From: Rhynchopus sp. YZ270_cl-10
Taxonomy: Eukaryota
Length of the DNA: 64,000 nucleotides
Assembly (NCBI GenBank): GCA_964035575.1
Contig: OZ037844.1
Span: forward strand, 372,001-436,000
Reading direction: 5' to 3'
This document shows positions 7,412 to 53,448 of the stretch, piece by piece. Each line of letters begins with the position of its first letter. Positions within the stretch are counted from its first letter, which is position 1. The position numbers and the translations under genes were made by a program. The notes below the pieces were generated by a model. It was not told the DNA's origin. It ran no database searches and was given only the letters and a program-made list of their open reading frames with translations.

Positions 7412-9067
7412 TCATTCTTCTGCACCGTGCTTGAGGAGAACCTGCACCACATCTGTATGTTGTTTCTGCCTCGCATAGTGCAACGCAGTGTGGCCCCAAA
7501 TATCCCCGTGGATCACATCCACCTTGTTCAAGCCCACAAGATAGCGCACAGTCTCGGTGTGTCCAACATACGCCGCAACGATAAGACACGTGTACCCATC
7601 GTCGTCCACCACACACACATCTGCACCTGCTTCCACCAACATCTTCACAATTTTTAGTTCCCCACCCTCACAAGCCCAGTGAAGAGGTGTGCTTCCTCTA
7701 TCATCCTTTGCATCGATGTCTGCCCCTGCATCAATGAGCAACTTCGACACATCTGAGTGCTTCTTTAACACTGCGTGGTGCAGTGCAGTGTTGCAACTGC
7801 TATTTGACTGATTCACATCCACCTCAGGCATGCACAGAAGAGTACGCACAGTCTCGGTGTGTCCATTGTAAGCCGCAAGAATAAGACACGTCTCTCCTTC
7901 GTTGTCTGTGACACGCACTCCTGCACCTGCTCTGACCAACACCTTCACAACACGCAGATTCCCAAACTCGCTCGCCGTTAGGAGTGGCGAACGTCCGTTA
8001 TTGTACGTTACCTCAATGTCTGCCCCTGCATCAAGGAGCACCTCCACCACATTTGCATCATTTTCATCAGCACAAGCTGCATGGAGCAGCGCAGTGCAGC
8101 CTTCATAAGCCTTGTGATCCACGTCGACCTGCAAACCCACAAGATAGTGCACAGTCTCGGTGTGTCCAAAATGCGCCGCATCGATAAGACATGTGTACCC
8201 GTTGTCATCCACCACACTCACGTCCGCACCTGCTTCCACCAACATCTCCACAACGTCGAGTCCCCCACCCTCACAAGCCCAGTGAAGAGGTGTGCTTCCT
8301 CTATCATCCTTTGCATCGATGTCTGCCCCTGCATCAATGAGCAACTTCGACACGGCTGAGTGCTTCGGTAACACTGAGTGGTGCAGTGCAGTGTTGCCCC
8401 TGTTATTTGACCGATTCACATCCACCTCAGGCATGCACACAAGAGTACGCACTGTCTCGGTGTGTCCAAAATAAGACGCAAGCATAAGACACGTGTCTCC
8501 GTAGTTGTCTGTGACACACACTGCCGCACCAGCTTCCACCAACATCTTCACAATGACGAACTTGCCCGAAATACTCGCCCTGAGCAGAGGCGAACGTCCC
8601 ATGTCGTCCTTTACCTCCATGTCTGCCCCTGCATCAATGAGGACCTGACACACTGCAGGGTCCTCCCACATGGCTGGACAGGGTCGATCTTCTTCTTCCT
8701 CCTGCCCGTGTGGGACAAACGCAACGTTGCTGCAGACTGACTTCCAATGCTGCAAGAGGACCTCCGTGCACGCAGTGTGGTCTGCGTGGATGCACTCACT
8801 CAGCAGCATCCCGAAGCCCATCTGCGTTGTCTCAACATACGGAAGAAGCAGTGCGAGGCATTCATCGTGGTTCCCTCTGCACGCCTCGTGCACAGCATTG
8901 AAGGCAACCGTTTTGCTGTCTGTGTCTGGGCTGAGCTTCTCAAGTCCCACCCGCACGGCAATCTTGTCGCCGTTCCTGGCAGCCTCCACCAAGACCGAGT
9001 CTGCAGAAGGCGTTCTTCTCTTTGGTGCCTTCTCGTCAGGTGTGCTGTCTGCGTGTTGCTTCGACAT
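7412..9067 (-). CDS. Ankyrin-repeat protein, copy 1 (constant N-terminus + 4 x 100-aa modules)
   Basis: 551-aa ORF with GxTPLHxA / LxxGADV ankyrin consensus; ends GAEE. Confidence 0.92.
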   Translation of the reverse strand: MSKQHADSTPDEKAPKRRTPSADSVLVEAARNGDKIAVRVGLEKLSPDTDSKTVAFNAVHEACRGNHDECLALLLPYVETTQMGFGMLLSECIHADHTACTEVLLQHWKSVCSNVAFVPHGQEEEEDRPCPAMWEDPAVCQVLIDAGADMEVKDDMGRSPLLRASISGKFVIVKMLVEAGAAVCVTDNYGDTCLMLASYFGHTETVRTLVCMPEVDVNRSNNRGNTALHHSVLPKHSAVSKLLIDAGADIDAKDDRGSTPLHWACEGGGLDVVEMLVEAGADVSVVDDNGYTCLIDAAHFGHTETVHYLVGLQVDVDHKAYEGCTALLHAACADENDANVVEVLLDAGADIEVTYNNGRSPLLTASEFGNLRVVKVLVRAGAGVRVTDNEGETCLILAAYNGHTETVRTLLCMPEVDVNQSNSSCNTALHHAVLKKHSDVSKLLIDAGADIDAKDDRGSTPLHWACEGGELKIVKMLVEAGADVCVVDDDGYTCLIVAAYVGHTETVRYLVGLNKVDVIHGDIWGHTALHYARQKQHTDVVQVLLKHGAEE

Positions 9068-9789
9068 GGTTTGTGAAAATGTTGATATTCAATGTTGTGT
9101 CTTTTGTGCTGTTTCTTTTAGTGGAGGTTGTGAGGTGAGTGGTGGGTGTGCCCACGTCAGGGCTGTCCCTTCTGCCTTGGGGGTGACTGTGTAGAAGTGC
9201 TCCAAACACTCCACTCTGGGTGTCAATTGAGGTGTATGGGGAGAGGGAGGGGGAGGAAAAGAGGAAGTGGTTGCTGCTGTCTGTTTTTGCATCGACGTTT
9301 GTCTAGGTTTTGTTTCTGGGTTTTGCTTTTTCTTTGGGGGGGGGGAGAGAGCGTGGTCCTCAATCAGACGGAGAAAAAGAAAGAGGAGTTGAAACGTACT
9401 CAAACAGCTCGGTCACGCTCATGCTGGGTTAGGGTGGGACGTTCGAGCGTTCCGTACCGTGAGAGAACGGAGGCGGTTCACAACCGCTGGAAAAGCACGC
9501 TACCGCTTTATACCCCCAAGGCTAAATGGCCCGCTATGATATTGCACGATAGTTTCGGGAGTGAGAGAAAGAAAACATTGATAAAAAGATGACCCTAAGC
9601 CTTGCGTGCTTTGAAGCATGCTGGGGGTGTCTGCCTGCTCAAGGAGAACCTGCACTGCACACCACTGCTTGGTCTGTTCTGCATTCTTTCGTCGATGTTG
9701 AAATGCTCTTTCTTCACACATCCAGTGGAAGTGCTCGTACCCCATACTGCCGTAGACGCTGGCACGAGGGGCTTGACGCGTCCACAGCA

Positions 9790-11457
9790 TCATTCTTCTG
9801 CACCGTGCTTGAGGAGAACCTGCTCCACATCTGTATGTTGTTTCTGCCTCGCATAGTGCAACGCAGTGTGGCCCCAAATATCCCCGTGGATCACATCCAC
9901 CTTGTTCAAGCCCACAAGATAGCGCACAGTCTCGGTGTGTCCAACATACGCCGCAACGATAAGACACGTGTACCCATCGTCGTCCACCACACACACATCT
10001 GCACCTGCTTCCACCAACATCTCCACAACGTCGAGTCCCCCACCCTCACAAGCCCAGTGAAGAGGTGTGCTTCCTCTATCATCCTTTGCATCGATGTCTG
10101 CCCCTGCATCAATGAGCAACTTCGACACATCTGAGTGCTTCTTTATCACTGCGTGGTGCAGTGCAGTGTTCCCTCTGCTATTTGACTGATTCACGTCCAC
10201 CTCAGGCATGCACAGAAGAGTACGCACAGTCTCGGTGTGTCCATTGTAAGACGCAAGAATAAGACACGTCTCTCCTTCGTTGTCTGTGACACACACTCCT
10301 GCACCTGCTTTGACCAACACCTTCACAACACGCAGATTCCCAAACTCGCTCGCCGTGAGGAGTAGTGAACGTCCGTTATTGTACGTTACCTCAATGTCTG
10401 CCCCTGCATCAATGAGCACCTCCACCACATCTGCATGGTGTTCATCAGCTGCATGGAGCAACGCAGTGCAGCCGTCATTATCCTTGTGATCCACGTCGAC
10501 CTGCAGCAAACCCACAAGATAGTACACAGTCTCGGTGTGTCCAAAATACGCCGCATCGATAAGACATGTGTACCCGTTGTCGTCCACCACACTCACGTCC
10601 GCACCTGCTTCCACCAACATCTCCACAATGTCGAGTTCCCCACCCTCACAAGCCCAGTGAAGAGGTGTCCTTCCTTTACCAGCTTTTGCATCGATGTCTG
10701 CCCCTGCATCAATGAGCAACTTCGACACGGCTGAGTGCTTCTTCAACACTGCGTGGTGCAATGCGGTGTTGCCACTGATATTTGACCGATTCACGTCCAC
10801 CTCAGGCATGCACAGAAGAGTACGCACCGTCTCGGTGTGTCCAAAATAAGACGCAAGCATAAGACATGTGTCTCCGTAGTTGTCTGTGACACACACTCCT
10901 GCACCTGCTTCAACCAACATCTTCACAATGACGACCTTGCCCGAAATACTCGCCCTGAGCAGAGGCGAACGTCCGCTCTCGTCCTTCACCCCGATGTCTG
11001 CCCCGGCATCAATGAGCACCTGACACACTGCAGGGTCCTTCCACATGGCTGGACAGGGACGAGGTGTGGTACTACCTTCGTTGTCTTCCTCTATCCCGTG
11101 TGGGACAAACGCAACGTTGCTGCAGACAGACTTCCAATGCTGCAAGAGGACCTCCGTGCACGCAGTGTGGTCTGCGTGGATGCACTCACTCAGCAGCATC
11201 CCGAAGCCCATCTGCGTTGTCTCAACATACGGAAGAAGCAGTGCGAGGCATTCATCGTGGTTCCCTCTGCATGCCTCGTGCACGGCATCGAAGGCAACCT
11301 TTTTGCTGTCTGTGTCTGGGCTGAGCTTCTCAAGTCCCGCCCGCACGGCAGTCGTGTCGCCGTTCCTGGCAGCCTCCACCAAGACCGAGTCTGCAGAAGG
11401 CGTTCTTCTCTTTGGTGCCTTCTCGTCAGGTGTGCTGTCTGCGTGTTGCTTCGACAT
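9790..11457 (-). CDS. Ankyrin-repeat protein, copy 2 (4 modules)
   Basis: 555-aa ORF; tandem duplicate of copy 1 including flanks (period about 2.4 kb). Confidence 0.92.
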   Translation of the reverse strand: MSKQHADSTPDEKAPKRRTPSADSVLVEAARNGDTTAVRAGLEKLSPDTDSKKVAFDAVHEACRGNHDECLALLLPYVETTQMGFGMLLSECIHADHTACTEVLLQHWKSVCSNVAFVPHGIEEDNEGSTTPRPCPAMWKDPAVCQVLIDAGADIGVKDESGRSPLLRASISGKVVIVKMLVEAGAGVCVTDNYGDTCLMLASYFGHTETVRTLLCMPEVDVNRSNISGNTALHHAVLKKHSAVSKLLIDAGADIDAKAGKGRTPLHWACEGGELDIVEMLVEAGADVSVVDDNGYTCLIDAAYFGHTETVYYLVGLLQVDVDHKDNDGCTALLHAADEHHADVVEVLIDAGADIEVTYNNGRSLLLTASEFGNLRVVKVLVKAGAGVCVTDNEGETCLILASYNGHTETVRTLLCMPEVDVNQSNSRGNTALHHAVIKKHSDVSKLLIDAGADIDAKDDRGSTPLHWACEGGGLDVVEMLVEAGADVCVVDDDGYTCLIVAAYVGHTETVRYLVGLNKVDVIHGDIWGHTALHYARQKQHTDVEQVLLKHGAEE

Positions 11458-12085: not shown

Positions 12086-14506
12086 TCACACATCCAGTGA
12101 CGAAGGGGAAAGAAAATAAGTAATTCCTATCAAAAAATAATAATAAAAACGGGATGTGCTGTGAATACGGGGTACCCACGCTCCTGGCACTCCACCCTGT
12201 AGAAATAACCTACAACACGCCCAGCACTCTGCTCTGCTGCAGGTATGCGAAAACGCGGCTTCTGCACCGTGCTTGAGGAGAACCTGCTCCACATCTGCAT
12301 GTTGTTCCTGCCTCGCATGGTGCAACGCAGTGTGGCCCAACAAATCTCTGTGGTTCACATCCACCTCCCGCAAGCCAACGAGATAGCGCACAGTCTCGGC
12401 ATGTCCAAAACTAGCCGCAAGGATGAGACATGTGGACCCGGCGTCGTCCACCACACTCACGTCCGCACCTGCTTTCACCAACATCTTCACAATTTCGAGT
12501 TCCCCAACCTCACAAGCACAGTGAAGAGGTGTGCTCCCTTCGCTATCCTTTGCCTCAACATCTGCCCCTGCATCAATGAGCACCTTCGACACAGCAAAGT
12601 CCTTCTGTGACACTGCGAAGTGCAGTGGAGTGTTGCCCTCAGCATTTGACTGATTTACATCCACCTCAGTCATGCACAGAAGAGTACGCACAGTCTCGGT
12701 GTGTCCAACGTCAACCGCAAGGATAAGACATGTGTACCCATCGTCGTCCACCACACTCACGTCCGCACCTGCTTCCACCAACATCTCCACAATGTCGAGT
12801 TCCCCACCCTCACAAGCCCAGTGAAGAGGTGTGCTTCTTCTGCTAGTCTGTGCCTCAATGTCTGCCCCTGCATCAATGAGCAACTTCGACACAGCTGAGT
12901 ACTTCTGTGACACTGCAAGGTGAAGTGGAGTGAAGCCTTCGGTATTTGAATGATTCACATCCACCTCCCGCAAGCCAACGAGATAGCGCACAGTCTCGGC
13001 ATGTCCAAAACTAGCCGCAACGATAAGACACGTGTACCCGTCGTCATCCACCACACACACGTCCGCACCTGCTTCCACCAACATCTCCACAATGTCGAGT
13101 TCCCCAACCTCACAAGCCCAGTGAAGAGGTGTCCTTCCTTTACCAGCTTTTGCATCGATGTCTGCCCCTGCATCAATGAGCAACTTCGACACGGCTGAGT
13201 GCTTCGGTAACACTGCGTGGTGCAGTGCAGTGTCGCCACTGATATTTGACCGATTCACATCCACCTCAGGCATGCACAGAAGAGTACGCATAGTCTCGGT
13301 GTGTCCCAAAGAAGCCGCAGTGGTAAGACACGTATGTCCCTGACTATCCGTGACACACACGTCCGCACCTGCTTTGACCAACACCTTCACAACCTGGGGA
13401 TTCCCACACTGACTTGCCACGAGGAGTGGCGAACGCCCGTCGTTACCCTTCACCTCAATGTCAGCCCCTGCATCAATGAGCACCTGCATCACATCTGCAT
13501 GATTCAATTCCACAGCGACTTCGAGCACAGCACTGTAACCGTCATCACTCTTATGACTCCCGTGGGCCTGAGACAAACCCACAAGAAAGCGCACAGTCTC
13601 GGTGTGTCCATAGCGTGCCGCAAACATAAGACATGTGTCTCCGAAGTTGCACGTAACACACGCACCTGCACCTGCTGCCACCAAAATTATCACAACTGCG
13701 AGTGCTCCTGAACGGCAAGCCCAGTGCAGAGGCGAACATCCCTGCTCGTCCGTTGTCTCGATGTCTGCACCTGCATCAATGAGCACCTCCACCACATCTG
13801 CATGGTTTCGAAGTACTGCATTGAACAACGCAGACCAATCGTCATCAGCTTTGTGATTCACGTTCACATCTTTCAAGCCGACAAGATAGCGCACAGTCTC
13901 GGTGTGTCCATCTGCCGCAATGGTAAGACATGTGTTTCCCCTGTCGTCTGTGACACACACTCCCGCACCTGCTTCCACCAACATCTTCACGACTGCTAAT
14001 TCTCCTGAATGGCAAGACCAGTGCAGAGGCGAACGTCCCATGTCGTCCTTTGTCTCGATGTCTGACCCTGCATCAATGAGCACCTGACACACTGCAGGGT
14101 CCGCCCACATGGCTGGACAGGGTCGGTCTTCTCCTTCCTCCTGCCCGTATGGGACAAACGCAACGTTGCTGCAGACTGACTTCCAATGCTGCAAGAGGAC
14201 CTCCGTGCACGCAGTGTGGTCTGCGTGGATGCACTCACTCAGCAGCATCCCGAAGCCCATCTGCGTTGTCTCAACATACGGAAGAAGCAGTGCGAGGCAT
14301 TCATCGTGGTTCCCTCTGCATGCCTCGTGCACAGCATCGAAGGCAATCTTTTTGCTGTCTGTGTCTGGGCTGAGCTTCTCAAGTCCCGCCCGCACAGCAG
14401 TCGTGTCGCCGTTCCTGGCAGCCTCCACCAAGACCTCGTCTGCAGAAAGCTTTCTTCTCTTTGGTGCCTTCTCGTCAGGTGTGCTGTCTGCGTGTTGCTT
14501 CGACAT
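12086..14506 (-). CDS. Ankyrin-repeat protein, copy 3 (6 modules, novel C-terminal tail)
   Basis: 806-aa ORF; the family GAEE-stop is replaced by GAEAAFSH... from about 12260. Confidence 0.9.
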   Translation of the reverse strand: MSKQHADSTPDEKAPKRRKLSADEVLVEAARNGDTTAVRAGLEKLSPDTDSKKIAFDAVHEACRGNHDECLALLLPYVETTQMGFGMLLSECIHADHTACTEVLLQHWKSVCSNVAFVPYGQEEGEDRPCPAMWADPAVCQVLIDAGSDIETKDDMGRSPLHWSCHSGELAVVKMLVEAGAGVCVTDDRGNTCLTIAADGHTETVRYLVGLKDVNVNHKADDDWSALFNAVLRNHADVVEVLIDAGADIETTDEQGCSPLHWACRSGALAVVIILVAAGAGACVTCNFGDTCLMFAARYGHTETVRFLVGLSQAHGSHKSDDGYSAVLEVAVELNHADVMQVLIDAGADIEVKGNDGRSPLLVASQCGNPQVVKVLVKAGADVCVTDSQGHTCLTTAASLGHTETMRTLLCMPEVDVNRSNISGDTALHHAVLPKHSAVSKLLIDAGADIDAKAGKGRTPLHWACEVGELDIVEMLVEAGADVCVVDDDGYTCLIVAASFGHAETVRYLVGLREVDVNHSNTEGFTPLHLAVSQKYSAVSKLLIDAGADIEAQTSRRSTPLHWACEGGELDIVEMLVEAGADVSVVDDDGYTCLILAVDVGHTETVRTLLCMTEVDVNQSNAEGNTPLHFAVSQKDFAVSKVLIDAGADVEAKDSEGSTPLHCACEVGELEIVKMLVKAGADVSVVDDAGSTCLILAASFGHAETVRYLVGLREVDVNHRDLLGHTALHHARQEQHADVEQVLLKHGAEAAFSHTCSRAECWACCRLFLQGGVPGAWVPRIHSTSRFYYYFLIGITYFLSPSSLDV

Positions 14507-18461: not shown

Positions 18462-18611
18462 GGAAAACACGTACGTTTTTGTTCGCGAAAACACGTACAC
18501 TTTTTCGCGATAACACGTATACTTTTTGTGTACGTGTTATCGCAAATCGAAAAAAAAAGTATACGTGTTATCGCAATTTACCCTTTTTTTTTTTTTTTTA
18601 CCAGGCCAAAT

Positions 18612-27600: not shown

Positions 27601-29193
27601 TCATTCTTCTGCACCGTGCTTGAGGAGAACCTGCTCCACATCTGCATGTTGTTTCTCCTTCGCATAGTGCAACGCAGTGTGGCCCAAAAAATCCCCGTGG
27701 ATCACATCCACCTTGTTCAAGCCCACAAGATAGCGCACAGTCTCGGTGTATCCAAAATATGCCGCAACGATAAGACATGTGTACCCATCGTCGTCCACCA
27801 CACTCACGTCCGCACCTGCTTCCACCAACATCTTCACAATTTTCAGTTCCCCACCCTCACAAGCCCAGTGAAGAGGTGTGCTTCCTCTATAATCCTTTGC
27901 ATCGATGTCTGCCCCTGCATCAATGAGCAACTTCGACACAGCTGAGTGCTTCGATAACACTGCGCGGTGCAGTGGAGTTAAGTCCTCGTTATTTGACCGA
28001 TTCACATCCACCTCAGGCATGCACAGAAGAGTACGTACAGTCTTGGTGTGTCCATTGTCAGCCGCAAGCATGACACACGTCTCTCCTTCGTTGTCTGTGA
28101 CACGCACTCCTGCACCTGCTCTGACCAACATCTTCACCACTCGCAGATTCCCAAACTCGCTCTCCGCGAGGAGTGGCGAACGTCCGTTGTTATGCTTAAC
28201 CTCAATGTCTGCCCCTGCATCAAGGAGCACCTCCACCACATTTGCATGGTGTTCATCAGCTGCATGGAGCAACGCAGTGCAGCCGTCATTATCCTTGTGA
28301 TCCACGTCGACCTGCGGCAAACCCACAAGATAGCGCACAGTCTCAGTGTGTCCAAGATGCGCCGCATCGATAAGACATGTGTGCCCATTCTCCTCTGTAG
28401 CACACACATCTGCACCTGCTTCCACCAACATCTTCACAATGTCGAGTTCCCCACCCTCAGAAGCATAGTGAAGAGGTGTGATTCCTCTAACATCCTTTGC
28501 ATCGATGTCTGCCCCTGCATCAATGAGCAACTTCGACACATCTGAGTGCTTCTTTAACACTGCGCCGTGCAGAGCAGAGTCGTCGGTGTGTCCATGACAT
28601 GCCGCAAACATAAGACATGTGCATCCGCAGTTGCACGTACTACACACTCCCGCACCTGCTTCCACCAACATCTTCACAACTGCGAGTGCTCCTGAACGAC
28701 AAGCCAAGTGCAGAGGCGAACGTCCCATGTCATCCTTTGTCTCGATGTCTGCCCCTGCATCAATGAGCACCTGACACACTGCAGGGTCCTCCCACATGGC
28801 TGGACAGGGTCGGTTTTCTCCTTCCTCCTTCCCGTGTGGGACAAACGCAACGTTGCTGCAGACTGACTTCCAATGCTGCAAGAGGACCTCCGTGCACGCA
28901 GTGTGGTCTGCGTGGACGCACTCACTCAGCAGCATCCCGAAGCCCATCTGCGTTGTCTCAACATACGGAAGAAGCAGTGCGAGGCATTCATCGTGGTTCC
29001 CTCTGCATGCCTCGTGCACAGCATCGAAGGCAACCGTTTTGCTGTCTGTGTCTGGTCTGAGCTTCTTCAGTCCCACCCGCACGGCAGTCGTGTCGCCGTT
29101 CCTGGCAGCCTCCACCAAGACCGAGTCTGCAGAAACTGTTGTGCTGTGTGGTGTCTCGTCAGGTGTGCTGTCTGCGTGTTGCTCCTTCGACAT
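27601..29193 (-). CDS. Ankyrin-repeat protein, copy 4 (4 modules, in-frame deletion in module 1)
   Basis: The family start MSKEQ is the ATG at 29193 (530 aa). The GHT|DDSALH junction lacks roughly 20 aa relative to paralogs. Confidence 0.9.
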   Translation of the reverse strand: MSKEQHADSTPDETPHSTTVSADSVLVEAARNGDTTAVRVGLKKLRPDTDSKTVAFDAVHEACRGNHDECLALLLPYVETTQMGFGMLLSECVHADHTACTEVLLQHWKSVCSNVAFVPHGKEEGENRPCPAMWEDPAVCQVLIDAGADIETKDDMGRSPLHLACRSGALAVVKMLVEAGAGVCSTCNCGCTCLMFAACHGHTDDSALHGAVLKKHSDVSKLLIDAGADIDAKDVRGITPLHYASEGGELDIVKMLVEAGADVCATEENGHTCLIDAAHLGHTETVRYLVGLPQVDVDHKDNDGCTALLHAADEHHANVVEVLLDAGADIEVKHNNGRSPLLAESEFGNLRVVKMLVRAGAGVRVTDNEGETCVMLAADNGHTKTVRTLLCMPEVDVNRSNNEDLTPLHRAVLSKHSAVSKLLIDAGADIDAKDYRGSTPLHWACEGGELKIVKMLVEAGADVSVVDDDGYTCLIVAAYFGYTETVRYLVGLNKVDVIHGDFLGHTALHYAKEKQHADVEQVLLKHGAEE

Positions 29194-29820: not shown

Positions 29821-31185
29821 TCATTCTTCTGCACCGTGCTTGAGGAGAACCTGCTCCACATCTGTATGTTGTTTCTCCCTCGCATGGTGCAATGCAGTGT
29901 GGCCCAAAAAATCCCTCTGGTTCACATCCACCTCCCGCAAGCCAACGAGATAGCGCACAGTCTCGGTGTGTCCAAAATACGCCGCATCGATAAGACACGT
30001 GTACCCATCGTCGTCCACCACACACACATCTGCACCTGCTTCCATCAACATCTGCACAATTTTTAGTTCCCCACCCTCACAAGCCCAGTGAAGAGATGTC
30101 CTTCCTTTACCAGACTTTGCCTCGATGTCTGCCCCTGCATCAATGAGCAACTTTGACACATCTGAGTGTTTCACTATCACTGCGAAGTGCAGTGGAGTGA
30201 CGCCCTCGGTATATGAGCCATTCACGTCCACCTCAGGCATGCACAGAAGAGTACGCATAGTCTCGGTGTGTCCCAAAGAAGCCGCACTGGTGAGACACGT
30301 ATGTCCCGTACTATCGGTGACACACACGTCAGCACCTGCTCTGACCAACATCTTCACAAACTGGGGATTCCCACGATAGCTCGCCTCAAGGAGTGGCGAA
30401 TGTCCGTCGGTGTACTTAACCTCAATGTCTGCCCCTGCATCAATGAGCACCTGCATCACATCTGCATGGTTTCGAAATACTGCACCGAACATCGCAGACA
30501 AGTGGTCCTCAGCTTTGTGATTCAGGTCCCCACTCTTCAAACCCACAAGATAGCGCACAGTCTCGGTGTGTCCATGATATGCCGCAAAAATAAGACATGT
30601 GTTTCCTTTGTTGCACGTACCACACACTCCCGCACCTGCTGCCACCAAAAATTTCGCAACTGCGAGTGCTCCTGAACGACAAGCAAAGTGCAGAGCCGAA
30701 CGTCCCATGTCGTCCTTTGTCTCGATGTCTGCCCCTGCATCAATGAGCACCTGACACACTGCAGGGTCCTCCCACATGGCTGGACAGGGTCGGTCTTTGA
30801 TGTCCTCCTGCCCGTGTGGGACAAACGCAACGTTGCTGCAGACAGACTTCCAATGCTGCAAGAGGACCTCCGTGCACGCAGTGTGGTCTGCGTGGACGCA
30901 CTCACTCAGTAGCATCCCGAAGCCCATCTGCGTTGTCTCAACATACGGAAGAAGCAGTGCGAGGCATTCATCGTGGTTCCCTCTGCATGCCTCGTGCACA
31001 GCATCGAAGGCAACCGTTTTGCTGTCTGTGTCTGGGCTGAGCTTCTCAAGTCCCGCCCGCACGGCAGTTGTGTCGCCGTTCCTGGCAGCCTCCACCAAGA
31101 CCTCGTCTGCAGAAAGCTTTCTTCTCTTTGGTGCCTTCTCGTCAGGTGTGCTGTCTGCGTGTTGTTTCGACGAGGTGAGACCCAT
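29821..31185 (-). CDS. Ankyrin-repeat protein, copy 5 (3 modules; rearranged 5' end)
   Basis: The family ATG is lost; the nearest in-frame ATG is at 31185 (MGLTSSKQHAD...). Confidence 0.85.
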   Translation of the reverse strand: MGLTSSKQHADSTPDEKAPKRRKLSADEVLVEAARNGDTTAVRAGLEKLSPDTDSKTVAFDAVHEACRGNHDECLALLLPYVETTQMGFGMLLSECVHADHTACTEVLLQHWKSVCSNVAFVPHGQEDIKDRPCPAMWEDPAVCQVLIDAGADIETKDDMGRSALHFACRSGALAVAKFLVAAGAGVCGTCNKGNTCLIFAAYHGHTETVRYLVGLKSGDLNHKAEDHLSAMFGAVFRNHADVMQVLIDAGADIEVKYTDGHSPLLEASYRGNPQFVKMLVRAGADVCVTDSTGHTCLTSAASLGHTETMRTLLCMPEVDVNGSYTEGVTPLHFAVIVKHSDVSKLLIDAGADIEAKSGKGRTSLHWACEGGELKIVQMLMEAGADVCVVDDDGYTCLIDAAYFGHTETVRYLVGLREVDVNQRDFLGHTALHHAREKQHTDVEQVLLKHGAEE

Positions 31186-37621: not shown

Positions 37622-38989
37622 TCACTCTTCTGCACCGTGCTCGAGGAGAACGTGCACCACATCTGTATATTGATTCTGCCTAGCCAAAGACAACGCAGTG
37701 AGGCCTCTCCAATCCCTCTGGTTCACATCCACCTCCTGCAAGCCCGCAAGATAGCCCACAACAGCCTTGGTGCATCGAGACACCTGCACAGCCGCAAACA
37801 TAAGACATGTCGTGCTTGCGTCGTCCACCACACACACGTCCGCACCTGCTTTGAGCAACTTCTGCACAATGTCGAGTTCCCCACCCATACAAGCAAAGTG
37901 AAGAGGTGTCGCACCTTGTATATCCTTTGCCTCGATGTCTGCCCCTGCATCAACGAGCAGCTGCATCACATCAGCATGTCCTCCTCCCTGCAGTGCCACG
38001 TGCAACGCAGTGCGTCCGTTGTTCCCTGAGTGATTCAGATCCACATCCTTCAAGCCTGCAAGATAGCGTACAGTCTCGGTGTGTCCATTGGCAGCCGCAA
38101 AGATAAGACATGTATAACCTTTACTGTCTATGCCACGTACTCCGGCACCTGCTTCGACCAACATCTTCACAACATCGAGTGCTCCTGAATAACAAGACCA
38201 GTGCAGAGGAGAACGTCCCATGTCGTCCTTTGTCTCGATGTCTGCCCCTGCATCAATGAGCACCTCTACCACATCAGCATGTCCTCGCTGCAGTGCGCAG
38301 TTCAACGCAGTGACTCCGTACTTCCCTGAGTGATTCAGATCCACATCCTTCAAGCCTGCAAGATAGCGCACAGTCTCGGTGTGTCCACTGGAAGCCGCAA
38401 AGATAAGACATGTGCTTCCTTTACTGTCTATGCCACGTACTCCTGCACCTGCTTCGACCAACATCTTCACAACATCGAGTGCTCCTGAACGACAAGACCA
38501 GTGCAGAGGAGAACGTCCCATGTCATCCTTTGTCTCGATGTCTGCCCCTGCATCAATGAGCACCTGACACACTGCAGGGTCCTCCCACATGGCTGGACAG
38601 TCAGGGTTTTTGATGTCCTCCTGCCCGTGTGGGACAAACGCAACGTTGCTGCAGACTGACTTCCAATGCTGCAAGAGGACCTCCGTGCACGCAGTGTGGT
38701 CTGCGTGGATGCACTCACTCAGCAGCATCCCGAAGCCCATCTGCGTTGTCTCAACATACGGAAGAAGCAGTGCGAGGCATTCATCGTGGTTCCCTCTGCA
38801 TGCCTCGTGCACAGCATCGAAGGCAACCGTTTTGCTGTCTGTGTCTGGGCTGAGCTTCTCAAGTCCCACCCGCACGGCAGTCGTGTCGCCGCTCCTGGCA
38901 GCCTCCACCAAGACCTCGTCTGCAGAAAGTGTTGTGATGTGTGGTGCCTTCTCGTCAGGTGTGCTGTCTGCGTGTTGCTCCTTCGACAT
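37622..38989 (-). CDS. Ankyrin-repeat protein, copy 6 (3 modules; modules 1 and 2 a recent internal duplication)
   Basis: 455-aa ORF; near-identical sequence at 300-bp spacing (about 38025 and 38325). Confidence 0.92.
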   Translation of the reverse strand: MSKEQHADSTPDEKAPHITTLSADEVLVEAARSGDTTAVRVGLEKLSPDTDSKTVAFDAVHEACRGNHDECLALLLPYVETTQMGFGMLLSECIHADHTACTEVLLQHWKSVCSNVAFVPHGQEDIKNPDCPAMWEDPAVCQVLIDAGADIETKDDMGRSPLHWSCRSGALDVVKMLVEAGAGVRGIDSKGSTCLIFAASSGHTETVRYLAGLKDVDLNHSGKYGVTALNCALQRGHADVVEVLIDAGADIETKDDMGRSPLHWSCYSGALDVVKMLVEAGAGVRGIDSKGYTCLIFAAANGHTETVRYLAGLKDVDLNHSGNNGRTALHVALQGGGHADVMQLLVDAGADIEAKDIQGATPLHFACMGGELDIVQKLLKAGADVCVVDDASTTCLMFAAVQVSRCTKAVVGYLAGLQEVDVNQRDWRGLTALSLARQNQYTDVVHVLLEHGAEE

Positions 38990-40268
38990 GGTTTGTGCAG
39001 ATGTTGATATTCAATGTTGTGTCTTTTATGCTGTTTCTTTTTGTGGAGGTTGTGATGTGAGTGGTGGGTGGTGAGGCAGGAGTCTCAGGCTTTGACAAGA
39101 AACTGAAATTTGTTTTGCAGAAATACAGAAAAAGGTCCCAAACGTTGTCTCATAGTTGACTCTTCGTCTCAACCAACATGATACGTAGGGAGCTGGGGTC
39201 TTTGTTGACAGGTGGTCAAATCTTTGCAGCTGCTGTGAAAGTGCATTATTTTCCGCTGCAAAATGCAAGGGCAGCCTCTCCTGGACATCGGGAACTTTGT
39301 AGTATTTCAGCCAAAAAAGCGTTCAAGGTCACCCACGTGGGTCTAACCACTTGAAACCTTCTACAATTCTACAGGTCACCCCACGAAGAACCCTCGATTC
39401 GTACCCATGCCATGTCAGAGTATGTGCGCTATTCTTTGCATGCAGTACGTCCCTGAATAATCTATCCCTGAAAGCAAAGACCAGACTCTGACAGTCGCCA
39501 ACTGATCTTGATTACTCGACCAGGAAAGGAGAAAGATTATTTTCGTTGAACGCACCCAAAAACAGTGTGTCAGATCTGAATTTGGGCGCAAGCGATTTTT
39601 AAAAAAGGGAGGGAGAAAATAGTCGGTATCAGACGATGAAACGGTGGCTTTATTATTCAGATTTGTAATAACACTGTGTGTAAGGGGAAAGAGAGAGAGA
39701 AAGTGAAAGAGTGGTTGAAACGTTAATTGGAGAACGGAGTCGGTTCACAAACCGCCCAGAAAAAAATCTTAATGTACCACACTCTGTTGATTCTAAAAAC
39801 GAGGGTGAGAAAAGTCGCGAATGGAAAAATGGGGGAGATATTGATAAAAGTTGGAAAGCTTCCTCACCCACATCACACTAAAATACAAAGGTTTGGGTTG
39901 AATGGGGTGGGTTCTTCTTCAGACGGTTGAACACAAAACTCTTCTTCATTTTATGTTTTTGAAAGAATATAACAAATACTCGCGAAATAGTTCAAGATTG
40001 AACTGAGAGAAAGAAGAAGAAACCCCAAACCCTCCCAGACCAAACGGTCTAACCTGTTGCATTGACATACTGTGGGGGAGAAGTGAGGAGCACGAGAATC
40101 GTCTTCGTGAAGACTAAAGGATTTCCTAAGATATGTCACAAGTGACGTGTCCCCGGGAAAAAAGAGTGAGAAAGTTCGAGACTCCAAAACATATCACAAA
40201 AAAAGAGACAACAAAAAACATGGGAGCTGTGCCTCCAGATAGGATTTCTGGACCACTGCGCGTTAGCA

Positions 40269-41321
40269 TCACTCTTCTGCACCGTGCTCGAGGAGAACGT
40301 GCACCACACCTGCATGTTGTTCCTGCTTCGCAATGGACAACGCAGTGAGGCCCTTCCAATTCCTCTGGTTCACATCCACCTCCTTCAAGCCCGCAAGATA
40401 GCCCACAACAGCCTTGGTGCATCGAGACACCTGCCTAGCCGCAAGCATAAGGCATGTTGTGCTATTGTCGTCCACCACACACACGTCCGCACCTGCTTTG
40501 AGCAACTTCTGCACAATGTCGAGTTTCCCACCTATACAAGCCCAGTGAAGAGGTGTCTTACCTTGTATATCCTTTGCATCGATGTCTGCCCCTGCATCAA
40601 TGAGCAACTCAACCACATCTAAATGCTTCTTTAGCACTGCTTGGTGCAGTGGAGTGCAGCCCCTGTTATCTGACTGATTCACATCCACCTCAGGCATGCA
40701 CAGAAGAGTACGCACAGTCTCGGTGTGTCCATTGACAGCCGCAAGCTTAAGACATGAGGCGCCTCTGCTGTTTGTGACACGCACCTCCGCACCTGCTCTG
40801 ACCAACACCTTCACAACTGCGAGTTCTCCTGAACAGCAAGCCCGGTGCAGAGGTGAACGTCCACTCTCATCTTTCACCTCGATGTCTGCCCCTGCATCAA
40901 TGAACACCTGACACACTGCAGGGTCCGCCCACATGGCTGGACAGGCACGGCACTCCTGCCCGTGTGGGACAAACGCAACGTTGCTGCAGACTGACTTCCA
41001 ATGCTGCAAGAGGACCTCCGTGCACGCAGTGTGGTCTGCGTGGATGCACTCACTCAGCAGCATCCCGAAGCCCATCTGCGTTGTCTCAACATACGGAAGA
41101 AGCAGTGCGAGGCATTCATCGTGGTTCCCTCTGCATGCCTCGTGCACAGCATCGAAGGCAACCTTTTTGTTATTTGTGTCTGGGCTGAGCTTCTCAAGTC
41201 CCACCCGCACGGCAGTCGTGTCGCCGTTCCTGGCAGCCTCCACCAAGACCTCGTCTGCAGAAAGCTTTCTTCTCTTTGGTGCCTTCTCGTCAGGTGTGCT
41301 GTCTGCGTGTCGCTTCGACAT
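40269..41321 (-). CDS. Ankyrin-repeat protein, copy 7 (2 modules)
   Basis: 350-aa ORF with the family N-terminus and GAEE end. Confidence 0.92.
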   Translation of the reverse strand: MSKRHADSTPDEKAPKRRKLSADEVLVEAARNGDTTAVRVGLEKLSPDTNNKKVAFDAVHEACRGNHDECLALLLPYVETTQMGFGMLLSECIHADHTACTEVLLQHWKSVCSNVAFVPHGQECRACPAMWADPAVCQVFIDAGADIEVKDESGRSPLHRACCSGELAVVKVLVRAGAEVRVTNSRGASCLKLAAVNGHTETVRTLLCMPEVDVNQSDNRGCTPLHQAVLKKHLDVVELLIDAGADIDAKDIQGKTPLHWACIGGKLDIVQKLLKAGADVCVVDDNSTTCLMLAARQVSRCTKAVVGYLAGLKEVDVNQRNWKGLTALSIAKQEQHAGVVHVLLEHGAEE

Positions 41322-42576
41322 GGTTTGTGAAGATGTTGATATTCAATGTTGTGTCTTTTATGCTGTTTCTTTTTGTGGAGGTTGTGAGGCAGGGGTCTCA
41401 GGCTTTGCCAAGAAACTGAAATTTGTTTTGCAGAAATACAAAAAAAAGGTCCCAAACGTTGTCTCGTAGTTGACTCTTCGTCTCAACCAACATAACACGT
41501 AGGGAGCTGGGTTCTTTGTTGACAGGTGGTCAAATCTTTGCAGCTGCTGTGAAAGTGCATTATTTTCGCTGAAAAATGCAAGGGCAGCCTCTCCTGGACA
41601 TCGGGAACTTTGTAGTACAGCCAAAAAAGCGTTCAAGGTCACCCACGTGGGTCCAACCACTTGAAATCTTCTACAATTCTACAGGTCACCCCTACGAAGA
41701 ACCCTCGATTCGTACCCATGCCATGTCAGAGTATGTGCGCTATTCTTTGCATGCAGTACGTCCCTGAATAATCTATCCCTGAAAGCAAAGACCAGACTCT
41801 GACAGTCGCCAACTGATCTTGATTACTCGACCAGGAAAGGAGAAAGATTATTTTCGTTGAACGCACCCAAAAACAGTGTGTCAGATCTGAATTTGGGCGC
41901 AAGCGATTTTTAAAAAGGGGAGGGAGAAAATAGTCGGTAGCAGACGATGAAACGGTGGCTTTATTATTCAGGTTTGTAATAACACTGTGTGTAAGGGGAA
42001 AGAGAGAGAGAAAGTGAAAGAGTGGTTGAAACGTTAATTGGAGAACGGAGTCGGTTCACAAACCGCCCAGAAAAAAATCTTAATGTACCACACTCTGTTG
42101 ATTCTAAAAACGAGGGTGAGAAAAGTCGCGAATGGAAAAATGGGGGAGATATTGATAAAAGTTGGAAAGCTTCCTCACCCACATCACACTAAAATACAAA
42201 GGTTTGGGTTGAATGGGGTGGGTTCTTCTTCAGACGGTTGAACACAAAACTTCTTCATTTTATGTTTTTGAAAGAATATAACAAATCCTCGCGAAATAGT
42301 TCAAGATTGAACTGAGAGAAAGAAGAAGAAACCCCAAACCCTCCCAGACCAAACGGTCTAACCTGTTGTATTGATATAGTGTGGGGGAGAAGTGAGGAGC
42401 ACGAGAATCGTCTGCGCGAAGACTAAAGGATTTCCTAAGATATGTCACAAGTGTCGTGTCCCGGGGGGAAAAGAGTGAGAAAGTTCGAGACTCCAAAACA
42501 TATCACAAAAAAAGAGACAACAAAAAACATGGGAGTTCTGCCTCCAGATAGGCTTTCTGGACCACTGCGCATAGCA

Positions 42577-44235
42577 TCATTCTTCTGCACCGTGCTCTAG
42601 GAGAACCTGCACCACACCTGTATGTTGATTCTGCCTAGCCAAAGACAACGCAGTGAGGCCTCTCCAATCCCTCTGGTTCACATCCACCTCCCGCAAGCCC
42701 GCAAGATAGCCCACAACAGCCTTGGTGCATCGAGACACCTGCAGAGCCGCAAACATAAGACATGTCGTGCTTGCGTCGTCCACCACACACACGTCCGCAC
42801 CTGCTTTGAGCAACTTCTGCACAATGTCGAGTTCCCCAGCGCTACAAGCACAGTGAAGAGGTGTCGTACCTTGTACATCCTTTGCCTCGATGTCTGCCCC
42901 TGCATCAATCAGCAACTGCACCACATCTGAGTGCTGCATTGACACTGCGAAGTGCAGTGGAGTGTAGCCCCTGTCATTTGACTGATTCACATCCACCTCA
43001 GGCATGCACAGAAGAGTACGCACCGTCTCGGTGTCTGCATTGGTAGCAGCAAGCTCAAGACATGAGCCTCCGCCGTTGTTTGTAACACGCACCCCCGCAC
43101 CTGCTCTGACCAACATCTTCACAACTGCGAGTGCTCTTGAACAGCAAGCCAAGTGCAGAGGCGAATGACCATGCTCATCCTGCACCTCCATGTCTGCCCC
43201 TGCATCAATAAGCACCTCCACCACATCTGGATGGTTTTTCCAAGCAGCAAGGAGCACCGCAGTGCAGCCGTCACTATCTCTGTGATTCACGTCCACCTCA
43301 GGCAGGTTCACAAGATAGCGCACAGTCTCAGTGTTGCCAAAGTCCGCAGCCAGCAGAAGACATGTGTCTCCTCTGTTGTCTGTGGCACGTACTCCTGCGC
43401 CTGCTCTGACCAACATCTTCACAAACTGGGGTTGATAGGCGCTTACCACGTGGAGTGCCGAACCCCCTTCGTTGTTCCTTGCCTCAATGTCTGCCCCTGC
43501 ATCAATGAGCACCTCCACCACATCAGCATATCCTCCCTTCAGTGCGCAGTGCAACGCAGTGCGTCCGTGGTTCCCTGAGTGATTCAAATCCACATCCTTC
43601 AAGCCTGCAAGATAGCACACAGTCTCGGTGTGTCCACTGGAAGCCGCAAAGATAAGACATGTGCTTCCTTCACTATCTATGCCACGTACTCCGGCACCTG
43701 CTTCGACCAACATCTTCACAGCATCGAGTGCTCCTGAACGACAAGACCAGTGCAGAGGCGAACGTCCCATGTCGTCCTTTGTCTCGATGTCTGCCCCTGC
43801 ATCAATGAGCACCTGACACACTGCAGGGTCCTCCCACATGGCTGGACAGGGTCGGTCTTCTCTGTACTCCTGCCCGTGTGGTACAAACGCAACGTTGCTG
43901 CAGACAGACTTCCAATGCTGCAAGAGGACCTCCGTGCACGCAGTGTGGTCTGCGTGGACGCACTCACTCAGCAGCATCCCGAAGCCCATCTGCGTTGTCT
44001 CAACATACGGAAGAAGCAGTGCGAGGCATTCATCGTGGTTCCCTCTGCATGCCTCGTGCACGGCATCGAAGGCAACCGTTTTGCTGTCTGTGTCTGGGCT
44101 GAGCTTCTCAAGTCCCGCCCGCACGGCAGTCGTGTCGCCGTTCCTGGCAGCCTCCACCAAGACCGAGTCTGCAGAAAGCTTTCTTCTCTTTGGTGCCTTC
44201 TCGTCAGGTGTGCTGTCTGCGTGTCGCTTCGACAT
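42577..44235 (-). CDS. Ankyrin-repeat protein, copy 8 (4 modules)
   Basis: 552-aa ORF; third unit of the 36.65-44.3 kb tandem triplication. Confidence 0.92.
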   Translation of the reverse strand: MSKRHADSTPDEKAPKRRKLSADSVLVEAARNGDTTAVRAGLEKLSPDTDSKTVAFDAVHEACRGNHDECLALLLPYVETTQMGFGMLLSECVHADHTACTEVLLQHWKSVCSNVAFVPHGQEYREDRPCPAMWEDPAVCQVLIDAGADIETKDDMGRSPLHWSCRSGALDAVKMLVEAGAGVRGIDSEGSTCLIFAASSGHTETVCYLAGLKDVDLNHSGNHGRTALHCALKGGYADVVEVLIDAGADIEARNNEGGSALHVVSAYQPQFVKMLVRAGAGVRATDNRGDTCLLLAADFGNTETVRYLVNLPEVDVNHRDSDGCTAVLLAAWKNHPDVVEVLIDAGADMEVQDEHGHSPLHLACCSRALAVVKMLVRAGAGVRVTNNGGGSCLELAATNADTETVRTLLCMPEVDVNQSNDRGYTPLHFAVSMQHSDVVQLLIDAGADIEAKDVQGTTPLHCACSAGELDIVQKLLKAGADVCVVDDASTTCLMFAALQVSRCTKAVVGYLAGLREVDVNQRDWRGLTALSLARQNQHTGVVQVLLEHGAEE

Positions 44236-51776: not shown

Positions 51777-51844
51777 GGTAAAATCAGGTGGTGTAGGTGA
51801 ATCGCAAAAATCGGCCGGGGCCCGGGCCCCGACTTACGGGGGTA

Positions 51845-52003
51845 CACGACGGGACCCAGTGACAAGTGACAAGTGAAAACGACAAGTGAAAAAAGTGACA
51901 AGTAAATGACAAGTAAATCACTTGTAATGACAAGTGACCTTTTTGAGTGACAAGTGAAATGACATGTGATTTCACTTGTCACTTGTCACTGGGTCCCGTC
52001 GTG
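51845..52003. mobile_element. MITE of the CACGACGG-terminus family with TGACAAG subrepeats
   Basis: 34-bp TIR CACGACGGGACCCAGTGACAAGTGACAAGTGAAA; TA on both flanks. Confidence 0.85.
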
Positions 52004-52083
52004 TACCAGAGGGGGTGAGGGGAGGGGAGTGGACAAGAACGGAGCTTTTTGTTCTGGTCGTTGTTGGTCGACGCTCCCTGGCA

Positions 52084-53448
52084 TCATTCTTCTGCACCGC
52101 ACTTGAGGAGAACCTGTTCCACATCTGTATGTTGTTTCTTCCTCGCATTGTGCAATGCAGTGTTGCCAAAAGAATTTCTGTGGTTCACATCCACCTTGTT
52201 CAAGCCCACAAGATAGCGCACAGTCTCGACGTCACTATAAAGAGCTGCATGCATGAGAATTGTGTTACTAAAGTTGTCCACAACATGCACGTCCGCACCT
52301 GCTTCGACTAACATCTGTACAATTTCGAGTCCCCGACCCTCACAAGCAGAGCGAAGAGGTGTGACACCAAGGACTGCAGTCGTTGCATCGACGTCAGCCC
52401 CTGCATCAATCAGCATCTGCATCACATCTGGGTATTTCTGTAACACTGCGTGGTGCAGTGAATCAAGTCCCGAAATATTTGAGTGATTCACATCCACCTC
52501 AGGCATGCACAGAAGAGTACGCACGGTGTCGGTGTGTCCATAAACAGCCGCATGAATAAGACATGTCTCCCCAAGGATATCCGTGACACACACGTCCGCA
52601 CCTGCCTTGAGCAGCACCTCCACAACACGGAGACTCCCTTGCTTGCTCGCCACGAGGAGTGGCGAACGTCCTTGGTAGTCCTTCACCTCGATATCTGCCC
52701 CTGCATCAATGAGAACCTCCACCACATCGGCATGGTTTTCGAGAGCTGCGAAGAGCACCGCAGTGTGGCCATCGTAAGCCTTGTGATTCAGGTCCACCTC
52801 CGGCAAGCCCAGAAGATAGCGCACAGTCTCGGTGCGTCCAGATCCTGCAGCCAGTATAAGACATGCATATCCAGCGTTGCCACTGGCTCGTACTGCCGCA
52901 CCTGCTTCCACCAACATCTTCACAACTGCTAATTCTCCTTCTCCGGAATAACAAGCCCAGTGCAGAGGTGAATATCCCATGTCGTTTTTTGTCTCGATGT
53001 CTGCCCCTGCATCAATGAGCACCTGACACACTGCAGGGTCCTCCCACATGGCTGGACAGTCACGGTTATTGATGTCCTTGTGTCCGTGTGGGACAAACGC
53101 AACGTTGCTGCAGACTGACTTCCAATGCTGCAAGAGGACCTCCGTGCACGCAGTGTGGTCTGCGTGGATGCACTCACTCAGCAGCATCCCGAAGCCCATC
53201 TGCGTTGTCTCAACATACGGAAGAAGCAGTGCGAGGCATTCATCGTGGTTCCCTCTGCATGCCTCGTGCACAGCATCGAAGGAAACCGTTTCGCTGTCTG
53301 TGTCTGGGCTGAGCTTCTCAAGTCCCGCCCGCACGGCAGTCGTGTCGCCGTTCCTGGCAGCCTCCACCAAGACCGAGTCTGCAGAAAGCTTTCTTCTCTT
53401 TGGTGCCTTCTCGTCAGGTGTGCTGTCTGCGTGTTGCTCCTTCGACAT
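52084..53448 (-). CDS. Ankyrin-repeat protein, copy 9 (3 modules)
   Basis: 454-aa ORF lying between the two cyclase loci. Confidence 0.92.
   Translation of the reverse strand: MSKEQHADSTPDEKAPKRRKLSADSVLVEAARNGDTTAVRAGLEKLSPDTDSETVSFDAVHEACRGNHDECLALLLPYVETTQMGFGMLLSECIHADHTACTEVLLQHWKSVCSNVAFVPHGHKDINNRDCPAMWEDPAVCQVLIDAGADIETKNDMGYSPLHWACYSGEGELAVVKMLVEAGAAVRASGNAGYACLILAAGSGRTETVRYLLGLPEVDLNHKAYDGHTAVLFAALENHADVVEVLIDAGADIEVKDYQGRSPLLVASKQGSLRVVEVLLKAGADVCVTDILGETCLIHAAVYGHTDTVRTLLCMPEVDVNHSNISGLDSLHHAVLQKYPDVMQMLIDAGADVDATTAVLGVTPLRSACEGRGLEIVQMLVEAGADVHVVDNFSNTILMHAALYSDVETVRYLVGLNKVDVNHRNSFGNTALHNARKKQHTDVEQVLLKCGAEE

What the first reader, a model, noticed from the sequence alone, without database searches (positions are those of the whole stretch)
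7412..53448. Variable ankyrin-receptor array: constant N-terminus plus a quantised, shuffled 100-aa tri-ankyrin module
Seen: nine intronless paralogs share an almost invariant ~145-aa N-terminus and a GAEE end (lost only in copy 3). Between these lie 4,4,6,4,3,3,2,4,3 copies of a 33+34+33-aa module, so lengths step by 100 aa (350, 455, 552, ~750). Scaffold residues (GADI.., G.TCL..AA..GHTETVR, EVDVN, LIDA) are fixed, while beta-hairpin tips and helix-1 positions vary strongly. Established: those positions form the ankyrin binding face and are the ones randomised in DARPins. Inference: this is a recombination-diversified recognition repertoire, analogous to NLR, VLR or fungal HET repeat systems, possibly for intracellular pathogen or virus sensing in a protist.
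Basis: partly seen in the sequence, partly recalled or inferred. Interest (0 to 1): 0.85.

Follow-up and report, generated by a model that had tools for sequence, protein, structure and literature searches.

The report
A protist's natural ankyrin binder library
A single-celled organism, likely a marine diplonemid protist, carries hundreds of related ankyrin-repeat genes that swap pieces in a fixed three-repeat rhythm and change fastest at the positions predicted to grip other proteins, so they likely form an inherited library of binders, possibly against viruses, mobile DNA or resident bacteria, though neither expression nor any target is shown.

Summary
Observation confirmed: nine uninterrupted minus-strand ankyrin ORFs with 4,4,6,4,3,3,2,4,3 copies of a 33+34+33-aa unit. 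They belong to a family of at least 290 protein clusters, seen only in genome-derived records; a neighbouring gene points to a diplonemid. A-B-C order holds at 1355 of 1369 junctions. Exchange occurs in register but cuts inside modules (PHI p=0.0005). Binding-face positions show dN/dS about 2-3 in close pairs (94 N vs 10 S changes, p=4e-4); the scaffold shows about 0.6. Corrections: the 'constant' N-terminus is degenerate ankyrin and mostly homogenised, with only a 54-codon core looking constrained. It starts with an NLS-like basic tail that many copies lack. No NOD, effector or F-box domain was found. A 907-aa ordinary ankyrin protein holds the N-terminus, one ABC unit and a family C-end, so it is the likely progenitor: a host origin, not a viral one. 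Best reading: a germline DARPin-like repertoire, partly nuclear, binding fast-changing foreign proteins, not an NLR or VLR. Expression, strain polymorphism and targets are untested. Similar diversification is known in fungal NLR ankyrins; this stand-alone triplet form was not found in my searches.

The parts
7412..9067 (-). Copy 1, 551 aa, N-terminus + 4 ABC modules (modules at 7427-8629), tail KRRT
9790..11457 (-). Copy 2, 555 aa, 4 modules; tandem duplicate of copy 1; repeat A of module 4 is 100% identical to repeat A of copy 1 module 2
12086..14506 (-). Copy 3, 806 aa, 6 modules (12269-14068); stop replaced by foreign 3' sequence, about 56-aa read-through
27601..29193 (-). Copy 4, 530 aa from the family ATG (ORF open to 29412), 4 modules, module 1 has a 20-aa in-frame deletion; lacks the basic tail motif
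29821..31185 (-). Copy 5, 454 aa, 3 modules, alternative 5' end (MGLTSSKQ)
37622..38989 (-). Copy 6, 455 aa, 3 modules; modules 1 and 2 are an internal duplication (92% DNA); lacks the basic tail motif
40269..41321 (-). Copy 7, 350 aa, 2 modules
42577..44235 (-). Copy 8, 552 aa, 4 modules; mosaic: module 1 like copy 6 module 1, module 3 like copy 7 module 1, module 4 like copy 6 module 3
52084..53448 (-). Copy 9, 454 aa, 3 modules, lying between two adenylate/guanylate cyclase genes
53386..53400 (-). Basic NLS-like cluster (KRRKL) of copy 9; same motif in copies 3, 5, 7, 8; KRRTP in copies 1, 2; replaced by HSTTV/HITTL in copies 4, 6
   Evidence: NLS consensus recalled, localisation untested
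53116..53271 (-). Conserved 52-codon N-terminal core (degenerate hairpin-less ankyrin repeats) of copy 9; same core in all nine copies
38990..42570 (.). Duplicated intergenic units of the copy 6-7-8 cluster (38990-40261 vs 41322-42570, 95.8% over 1274 bp): recent tandem duplication

Best explanation
This is a large family of stand-alone ankyrin-repeat genes whose repeats recombine in a fixed three-repeat register and whose predicted binding face is under diversifying selection; it likely serves as an inherited, partly nucleus-directed library of protein binders that would neutralise fast-changing foreign proteins from viruses, mobile elements or intracellular bacteria by binding them. Steps: (1) inferred: an ordinary host ankyrin gene like P0155 lost its middle, joining its N-terminus to its last three repeats; (2) shown: that A-B-C unit is repeated 2-10 times per gene, genes are tandemly duplicated, and DNA is exchanged between same-type repeats; inferred: only same-type repeats are similar enough to pair, which keeps the 100-aa step; (3) shown: amino-acid changes are in excess at positions 3, 5, 10, 13, 14 while the scaffold is under purifying selection; (4) inferred: each gene displays a different concave binding surface; the basic tail would import many members into the nucleus; binding alone (IkB- or DARPin-like sequestration) would be the action, with the conserved N-terminal core as an optional dock for one host partner; (5) untested: expression and identity of targets.
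For: Family size: 282 clusters plus 8 longer ones. Register: 1355 of 1369 junctions in order, in 126 of 128 proteins examined; same-type repeats reach 99-100% DNA identity, different types at most 55%. Recombination: PHI-type test p=0.0005 (third positions of non-face codons p=0.008-0.02); SH rejects each repeat's tree on the other repeats; a 99-nt repeat is identical between non-equivalent modules. Selection: 11 disjoint close pairs (22 of 33 modules) give dN/dS 2.97 at the published library positions 2,3,5,10,13,14 (93.8 N, 10.2 S; Fisher p=4e-4; bootstrap over pairs 1.25-18.6), 1.95 at 2,3,5,13,14,33 (p=0.022), 0.54-0.61 elsewhere, and 1.10 at convex-surface controls. ML with per-repeat trees gives 1.57-1.98 at the face and 0.54-0.66 elsewhere. 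A site grid puts 10 of 11 (F3x4) and 9 of 9 (equal frequencies) sites with posterior >= 0.9 at positions 3,5,10,13,14. 471 of 475 modules have distinct face strings. No non-ankyrin domain. Basic tail: 61 bipartite + 13 monopartite of 123; kept across varied linkers and in members lacking the core. Core: 1 N vs 3 S variant codons (p=0.05); 91-93% vs 54-61% for the flanking repeat in P0132-P0134. Progenitor: P0155 is 70%, 60% and 60% identical in three separate family segments and has one ABC unit. Context: other diplonemids host bacteria with secretion systems and effectors (10.1101/719211 passages).
Against: No RNA or protein evidence. No target, and no link to infection. With no transition bias assumed, the set 2,3,5,13,14,33 is not significant (1.60, p=0.12), and on one whole-module tree with its own dS it gives 1.34 (p=0.072). 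ML dS is also raised at face sites (1.3-2.0 vs about 0.8), so conversion or multiple hits inflate some estimates. Scaffold dN/dS near 0.6 is weak constraint. 45 of 128 database proteins end mid-module, carry long tails or are off-register/gapped, so a sizeable part may be decaying. 49 of 123 lack the strict basic motif. Members without the core exist, so it is not an obligatory adaptor. All selection tests rest on 33 modules from one window and one genome.
Confidence: 0.55

Rival explanations
1. Substrate-adaptor family, like nematode F-box/FTH genes or poxvirus ANK/F-box proteins: the conserved N-terminal core docks one host machine (for example a ubiquitin ligase) and the variable repeats deliver foreign proteins for destruction.
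For: The core is nearly invariant, including its face-equivalent positions (entropy 0.15 vs 0.49 for the flanking repeat and 1.18 for the module scaffold; 1 N vs 3 S). The same split of constant dock and positively selected binder is described for nematode F-box genes (PMC12062965 passages).
Against: No F-box, SOCS or BTB match. The core is ankyrin-like and inherited from the progenitor. Several members lack it. Database hits were selected by similarity to this region, which inflates its conservation.
Confidence: 0.2
2. Diversification driven by an internal conflict or host regulation: binders of the organism's own fast-evolving nuclear proteins (self/non-self or mating recognition, segregation distortion, transcription-factor inhibition) and not of invaders.
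For: Host origin with an NLS-like tail already present in P0155. Positive selection alone does not name the opponent. Fungal repeat diversification also serves allorecognition (PMC13449251 abstract).
Against: Hundreds of distinct faces in one genome is more than a few endogenous partners would need; this is inference, not a test.
Confidence: 0.12
3. Largely non-adaptive amplification in a recombination-prone genome: copies multiply by unequal crossing-over, the fold is loosely maintained, and the face varies because it is unconstrained.
For: Other families here are also multiplied (two cyclase genes 85% identical). Scaffold dN/dS is about 0.6. N-terminal dN/dS 0.63-0.74 is not significantly below 1. 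Many truncated members. Triplet register needs no selection to explain.
Against: Relaxation predicts dN/dS up to 1, not 2-3; convex surface controls sit near 1; 44-51 N vs 6 S single-base changes at the face; 9 of 9 window ORFs are open.
Confidence: 0.1
4. Endogenised giant-virus or symbiont ankyrin genes (genomic-accordion relic).
For: Atlas feature neighbours of the N-terminus include viral clusters at 0.96; a kinetoplastid-infecting giant virus has 148 ankyrin genes (PMC5871332 passages).
Against: No true relative in viral contigs (one 34-residue hit at 43%; none) or metagenome contigs. No fold match at E <= 0.001. GC3 0.54-0.59 matches host neighbours 0.51-0.64.
Confidence: 0.03

Closest known systems
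Fungal NLRs with highly conserved ANK repeats (e.g. [quoted passage not shown] 2014, PMC4986451, passages read; Ament-Velasquez and Saupe 2026, PMC13449251, abstract and one section read)
   Same: Repeat-number variation, repeat exchange between genes, and positive selection on the inner helix and hairpin of ankyrin repeats.
   Different: No NACHT/NB-ARC and no effector domain here. The unit is a three-repeat higher-order repeat. Only 9 of 124 proteins meet the >=85% internal-identity criterion, and 396 of 475 modules have their nearest neighbour in another gene.
DARPins / artificial ankyrin libraries (PMC3308923, passages read; PMC8229355, passages read)
   Same: Fixed scaffold, caps, variable repeat number, diversity at positions 2,3,5,10,13,14.
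   Different: Natural and germline-encoded; three alternating scaffolds including a 34-residue repeat; binding not demonstrated.
Nematode F-box/FTH family (Thomas 2006 as cited in PMC12062965, passages read)
   Same: Large lineage-specific family with a conserved end and a positively selected binding part.
   Different: No F-box or other ligase adaptor found; the conserved end is degenerate ankyrin and is missing in some members.
Giant-virus ankyrin expansions (Bodo saltans virus, 148 genes; PMC5871332, passages read)
   Same: Tandem, recently duplicated, stand-alone ankyrin genes of variable length, read as arms-race products in a euglenozoan system.
   Different: Here on the host side, derived from a host-type gene, with no viral relative found.
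Ankyrin orthogroup OG0000001 in the Diplonema papillatum genome paper (PMC10161547, supplement file 5, sheet S1D; main-text passages searched, 0 mentions of ankyrin)
   Same: Records a diplonemid ankyrin expansion: Dpap 393, Sspe 180, Rhum 585, Hpha 389 members vs 16-18 in four trypanosomatid columns.
   Different: A lumped orthogroup that is also large in other eukaryotes (Xtro 330, Ehux 293); no architecture or selection analysis. Whether it contains this family was not tested.
Lamprey VLRs and KRAB zinc-finger genes (both recalled, no call)
   Same: Variable repeat arrays between constant ends; KRAB-ZNFs are germline, nuclear and arms-race driven.
   Different: No somatic assembly or cassette pool shown; ankyrins are expected to bind protein, not DNA; no repressor domain.

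Membership tests
Ankyrin repeat superfamily (Pfam Ank clan) | 33-residue helix-turn-helix-hairpin repeats above Pfam cut-off | tested here: met
   Ank_2 203-425 bits vs cut-off 27.3 in the 3 of 9 copies scanned; best PDB sequence hits are DARPins and ankyrins
NLR / fungal HET-type STAND receptors | Central NACHT or NB-ARC NTPase | tested here: not met
   None in 3 window copies, 8 database members and 5 distant relatives scanned, nor in precomputed domains of 128 hits
NLR / fungal HET-type STAND receptors | N-terminal effector or signalling domain | tested here: not met
   N-terminus gives only weak ankyrin matches and weak ankyrin/helical-repeat fold hits, none at E <= 0.001
NLR / fungal HET-type STAND receptors | Positive selection on the concave face of the repeats | tested here: met
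Fungal HiC repeat receptors | >=85% internal identity over >=100 aa | tested here: not met
   1 of 9 window copies and 9 of 124 database proteins
Fungal HiC repeat receptors | Repeat-number polymorphism between isolates | not testable with these tools
   Only contigs matching the window almost exactly, or sparse fragments, were available
VLR-type somatic repertoires | Incomplete germline gene plus cassette pool assembled somatically | tested here: not met
   All nine loci are complete ORFs; no free module cassettes in the masked window. Rest of the genome not available
ANK/F-box (PRANC), ASB/SOCS or BTB ligase adaptors | F-box, SOCS box or BTB domain | tested here: not met
   No such Pfam match; a divergent unrecognised dock is not excluded
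Nuclear IkB-like stand-alone ankyrin inhibitors | Nuclear import signal and nuclear location | tested here: inconclusive
   Motif in 74 of 123 tails; consensus recalled; location not testable
Viral ankyrin accordion genes | Viral relatives or viral context | tested here: not met

The most novel reading that the evidence does not exclude
A unicellular eukaryote has built, from the two ends of one ordinary ankyrin gene, a germline library of hundreds of effector-less DARPin-like binders, many addressed to the nucleus, that neutralise invading viral, transposon or symbiont proteins: a protein-targeting counterpart of KRAB zinc fingers and a form of protist immunity that needs no NLR.
Probability: 0.3. 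Interest if true: 0.85.

Novelty: new variant of a known kind. Interest (0 to 1): 0.62.

Why it matters
How free-living protists defend themselves against intracellular parasites is largely unknown. This family offers concrete, testable candidates: soluble single-exon genes with a measured selection signal on a defined surface, a natural with/without contrast in the NLS-like tail, and a candidate progenitor that shows how a binder repertoire can arise from one housekeeping-type gene. Its 471 distinct natural binding faces on three co-adapted scaffolds also inform repeat-protein design. If it is only a decaying expansion, it still documents a protein higher-order repeat held in register by recombination.

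Tried and rejected
No whole genome was held, so no DNA-level genome-wide count or dN/dS was possible. No RNA holder was listed; this says nothing on expression. Contigs of seven coded runs were laid: two match single-copy stretches of the window letter for letter and may be its source, three gave short fragments, two gave nothing; no polymorphism could be read, and summed depth was not used as copy number. Cluster look-ups of 30 proteins returned only ENA records without names, and one sequence was absent; no transcriptome member. Class fits did not converge (dS stuck at the start value) and were discarded and redone; only the site grid is used. Position 10 was added after seeing the entropy table; it later proved to be in a published library set. 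The set 2,3,5,13,14,33 is recalled. Indel-adjacent codons in 11 modules were masked by hand. Fold searches of the N-terminus (model pLDDT 66) gave no match at E <= 0.001; the wide structural search and the complex prediction (planned: core homodimer) were not available. Non-ankyrin Pfam hits on long members (VWA_3_C, Hairy_orange and others) are sums of short matches on repeats and were rejected. A targeted mutator was rejected: the substitution spectrum at the face resembles the rest. A mobile-element carrier was rejected: shared flank is only about 70-200 bp of 5' sequence plus subfamily-specific 3' flanks. Literature: searches found no description of this family or of a tri-ankyrin higher-order repeat; the library lacks most subscription papers, and the Trichomonas ankyrin comparison returned nothing.
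Full report
Observation. The nine ORFs are present on the minus strand at 7412-9067, 9790-11457, 12086-14506, 27601-29412, 29821-31185, 37622-38989, 40269-41321, 42577-44235 and 52084-53448, and no further copy lies in the window. Cutting at the start of repeat A gives 33 modules in the stated numbers; 22 are 100 aa, 10 are 99-103 aa and one is 80 aa. Pfam finds ankyrin families, plus a few sub-cut-off hits lying on the repeats, in the three copies scanned. Entropy is 2.60 bits at the 18 classical DARPin positions (2,3,5,13,14,33 of each repeat; recalled numbering) against 1.00 at the other 82. The genes form sub-clusters with recently duplicated flanks, up to 95.8% over 1274 bp, separated by satellites and unrelated genes.

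Organism and family. The neighbouring ubiquitin hydrolase has few close relatives; one carries the label 'Rhum_' at 46% identity. That abbreviation is a diplonemid column in the D. papillatum supplement (expansion to Rhynchopus humris recalled). I therefore infer a diplonemid. The N-terminal region finds 282 clusters at 90% identity among proteins of 303-965 aa (120 listed) and 8 longer ones. That they come from one assembly is likely but not shown. A full scan of 1.84 billion representatives gave 33 hits at E <= 1e-10; the 20 relatives looked up are all unnamed ENA records. No relative was found in viral or metagenome contigs.

Register and recombination. In 126 of 128 proteins, 1355 of 1369 adjacent repeats follow A-B-C. 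96 proteins are pure (ABC)n with n = 2-10, 14 end mid-module and 16 are off-register or gapped. Same-type repeats reach 99-100% DNA identity, different types at most 55%, which explains the 300-nt step without invoking selection. Exchange is direct to see: repeat A of copy 2 module 4 is identical to repeat A of copy 1 module 2, and repeat A of copy 2 module 2 is 99% identical to that of copy 3 module 4, while their other repeats have other neighbours. A PHI-type permutation test gives p=0.0005 and SH tests reject each repeat's tree on the others. In the seven closest pairs, 31 of 114 differences have both variants present in other window modules.

Selection. Tree-free counting in 11 disjoint close pairs (22 of 33 modules, chosen as near neighbours) gives dN/dS 1.95 (p=0.022) at 2,3,5,13,14,33 and 0.61 elsewhere. 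At the positions randomised in a published library, 2,3,5,10,13,14 (PMC3308923, passages), it is 2.97 (p=4e-4; 2.39-3.62 across assumed transition bias; bootstrap 1.25-18.6), while convex-surface controls give 0.84-1.38, none significant. Against this: the first set is not significant without transition bias (1.60, p=0.12) or on a single whole-module tree (1.34, p=0.072), and ML dS is raised at the face. With separate trees per repeat, ML gives 1.57-1.98 (p 0.009 to 1.6e-5) at the face and 0.54-0.66 elsewhere. A site grid marks A3, A5, A10, A13, B10, B14, C5, C10 and C14 under both frequency models. Among 475 database modules, 471 face strings are distinct, and half of the face residues differ from the nearest scaffold neighbour against 14% of other residues. 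That these positions form the binding face follows from ankyrin structure (PMC8229355 and PMC4986451 passages); I could not map sites on my own models.

N-terminus. It is a disordered tail plus three helical hairpins (pLDDT 66) that match ankyrin weakly; fold searches gave only non-significant ankyrin and helical-repeat hits. Its synonymous divergence is 0.031, against 0.15-0.31 in module scaffolds, and dN/dS 0.63-0.74 is not significantly below 1, so most of the constancy is recent shared ancestry or homogenisation. A 54-codon core differs: 1 N vs 3 S variant codons (p=0.05) against 14 vs 4 in the first repeat, and 91-93% vs 54-61% identity in three divergent members. The tail resembles a bipartite NLS (KR, about 11 residues, KRRK; consensus recalled): 61 bipartite and 13 monopartite of 123, none in 49. 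Both basic clusters persist across quite different linkers and in members that have lost the core.

Origin. It has the family N-terminus (70% over 101 aa), the block inserted in the P0001-P0016 subfamily (60% over 157 aa), exactly one ABC unit at 777-877, and the C-end of the P0023 subfamily (60% over 134 aa). The simplest reading is internal deletion followed by amplification of the last three repeats; a chimera built from family pieces is not excluded. Host-like GC3 agrees with a host origin.

Mechanism and rivals. With no NOD or effector domain in any member examined, these are not NLRs. The best-supported model is a germline binder library acting by sequestration, partly in the nucleus, against fast-changing foreign proteins (0.55). 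Candidate opponents are inferred only: other diplonemids carry bacteria with secretion systems and effectors (10.1101/719211 passages), giant viruses infect related kinetoplastids (PMC5871332 passages), and a tyrosine-recombinase element lies in this window. Rivals are an adaptor role for the core (0.2), internal conflict or regulation (0.12), non-adaptive amplification (0.1) and viral relic (0.03). Expression, location, polymorphism and targets are all untested; no RNA run was available.

Novelty. Repeat exchange plus concave-face selection in ankyrins is published for fungal NLRs. An ankyrin expansion in diplonemids is recorded as one supplement row but not discussed in that paper's main text. 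I did not find the stand-alone, triplet-register, NLS-dimorphic form or its origin in the searches; subscription papers and preprint supplements were not searched. Unchecked notes from this scan describe DARPin-like arrays in phages and bacteria, so the design recurs. Verdict: a real, new variant of a known kind; interest 0.62.

Noticed in passing
window 57767-63906: Tyrosine-recombinase (DIRS/Ngaro-like, label recalled) element: 279-bp direct repeats (57767-58044 and 63628-63906, 98.6%) flank a repeat-rich gag-like ORF, a Phage_integrase-family ORF and an overlapping 906-aa frame that looks RT-like by eye but has no Pfam hit.
   Followed up: partly
window 49288-51353 and 54845-56917: Two cyclase genes, 85% identical over 1384 bp, flank copy 9; the left one is split over several ORFs. 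Many variant contigs lie on them, suggesting another large family.
   Followed up: no
window 45510-48967: Glycoside hydrolase 123 gene (492 bits), apparently in several exons.
   Followed up: no
window 20577-21873: Perfect satellites: 94 copies of a 7-mer followed by 127 copies of a 5-mer; further 8-bp and 41-bp arrays at 16688-18463 and 24640-26196.
   Followed up: no
window about 51830-52030: Short palindromic, MITE-like insertion just 3' of copy 9; similar 11-bp repeats lie 3' of copy 6 at 37055-37255.
   Followed up: no
window 7241-7349, 9619-9727, 11967-12114, 14848-14955, 29490-29606: A shared 3' flank segment that translates to a remnant resembling the C-terminal capping repeat.
   Followed up: partly
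P0001-P0016: Subfamily with the N-terminus present twice around a roughly 160-aa block of ordinary ankyrin repeats shared with P0155: a possible intermediate in the family's origin.
   Followed up: partly
window 2847-4973: Ubiquitin carboxyl-terminal hydrolase gene directly downstream of the array on the same strand; no evidence of a functional link.
   Followed up: partly
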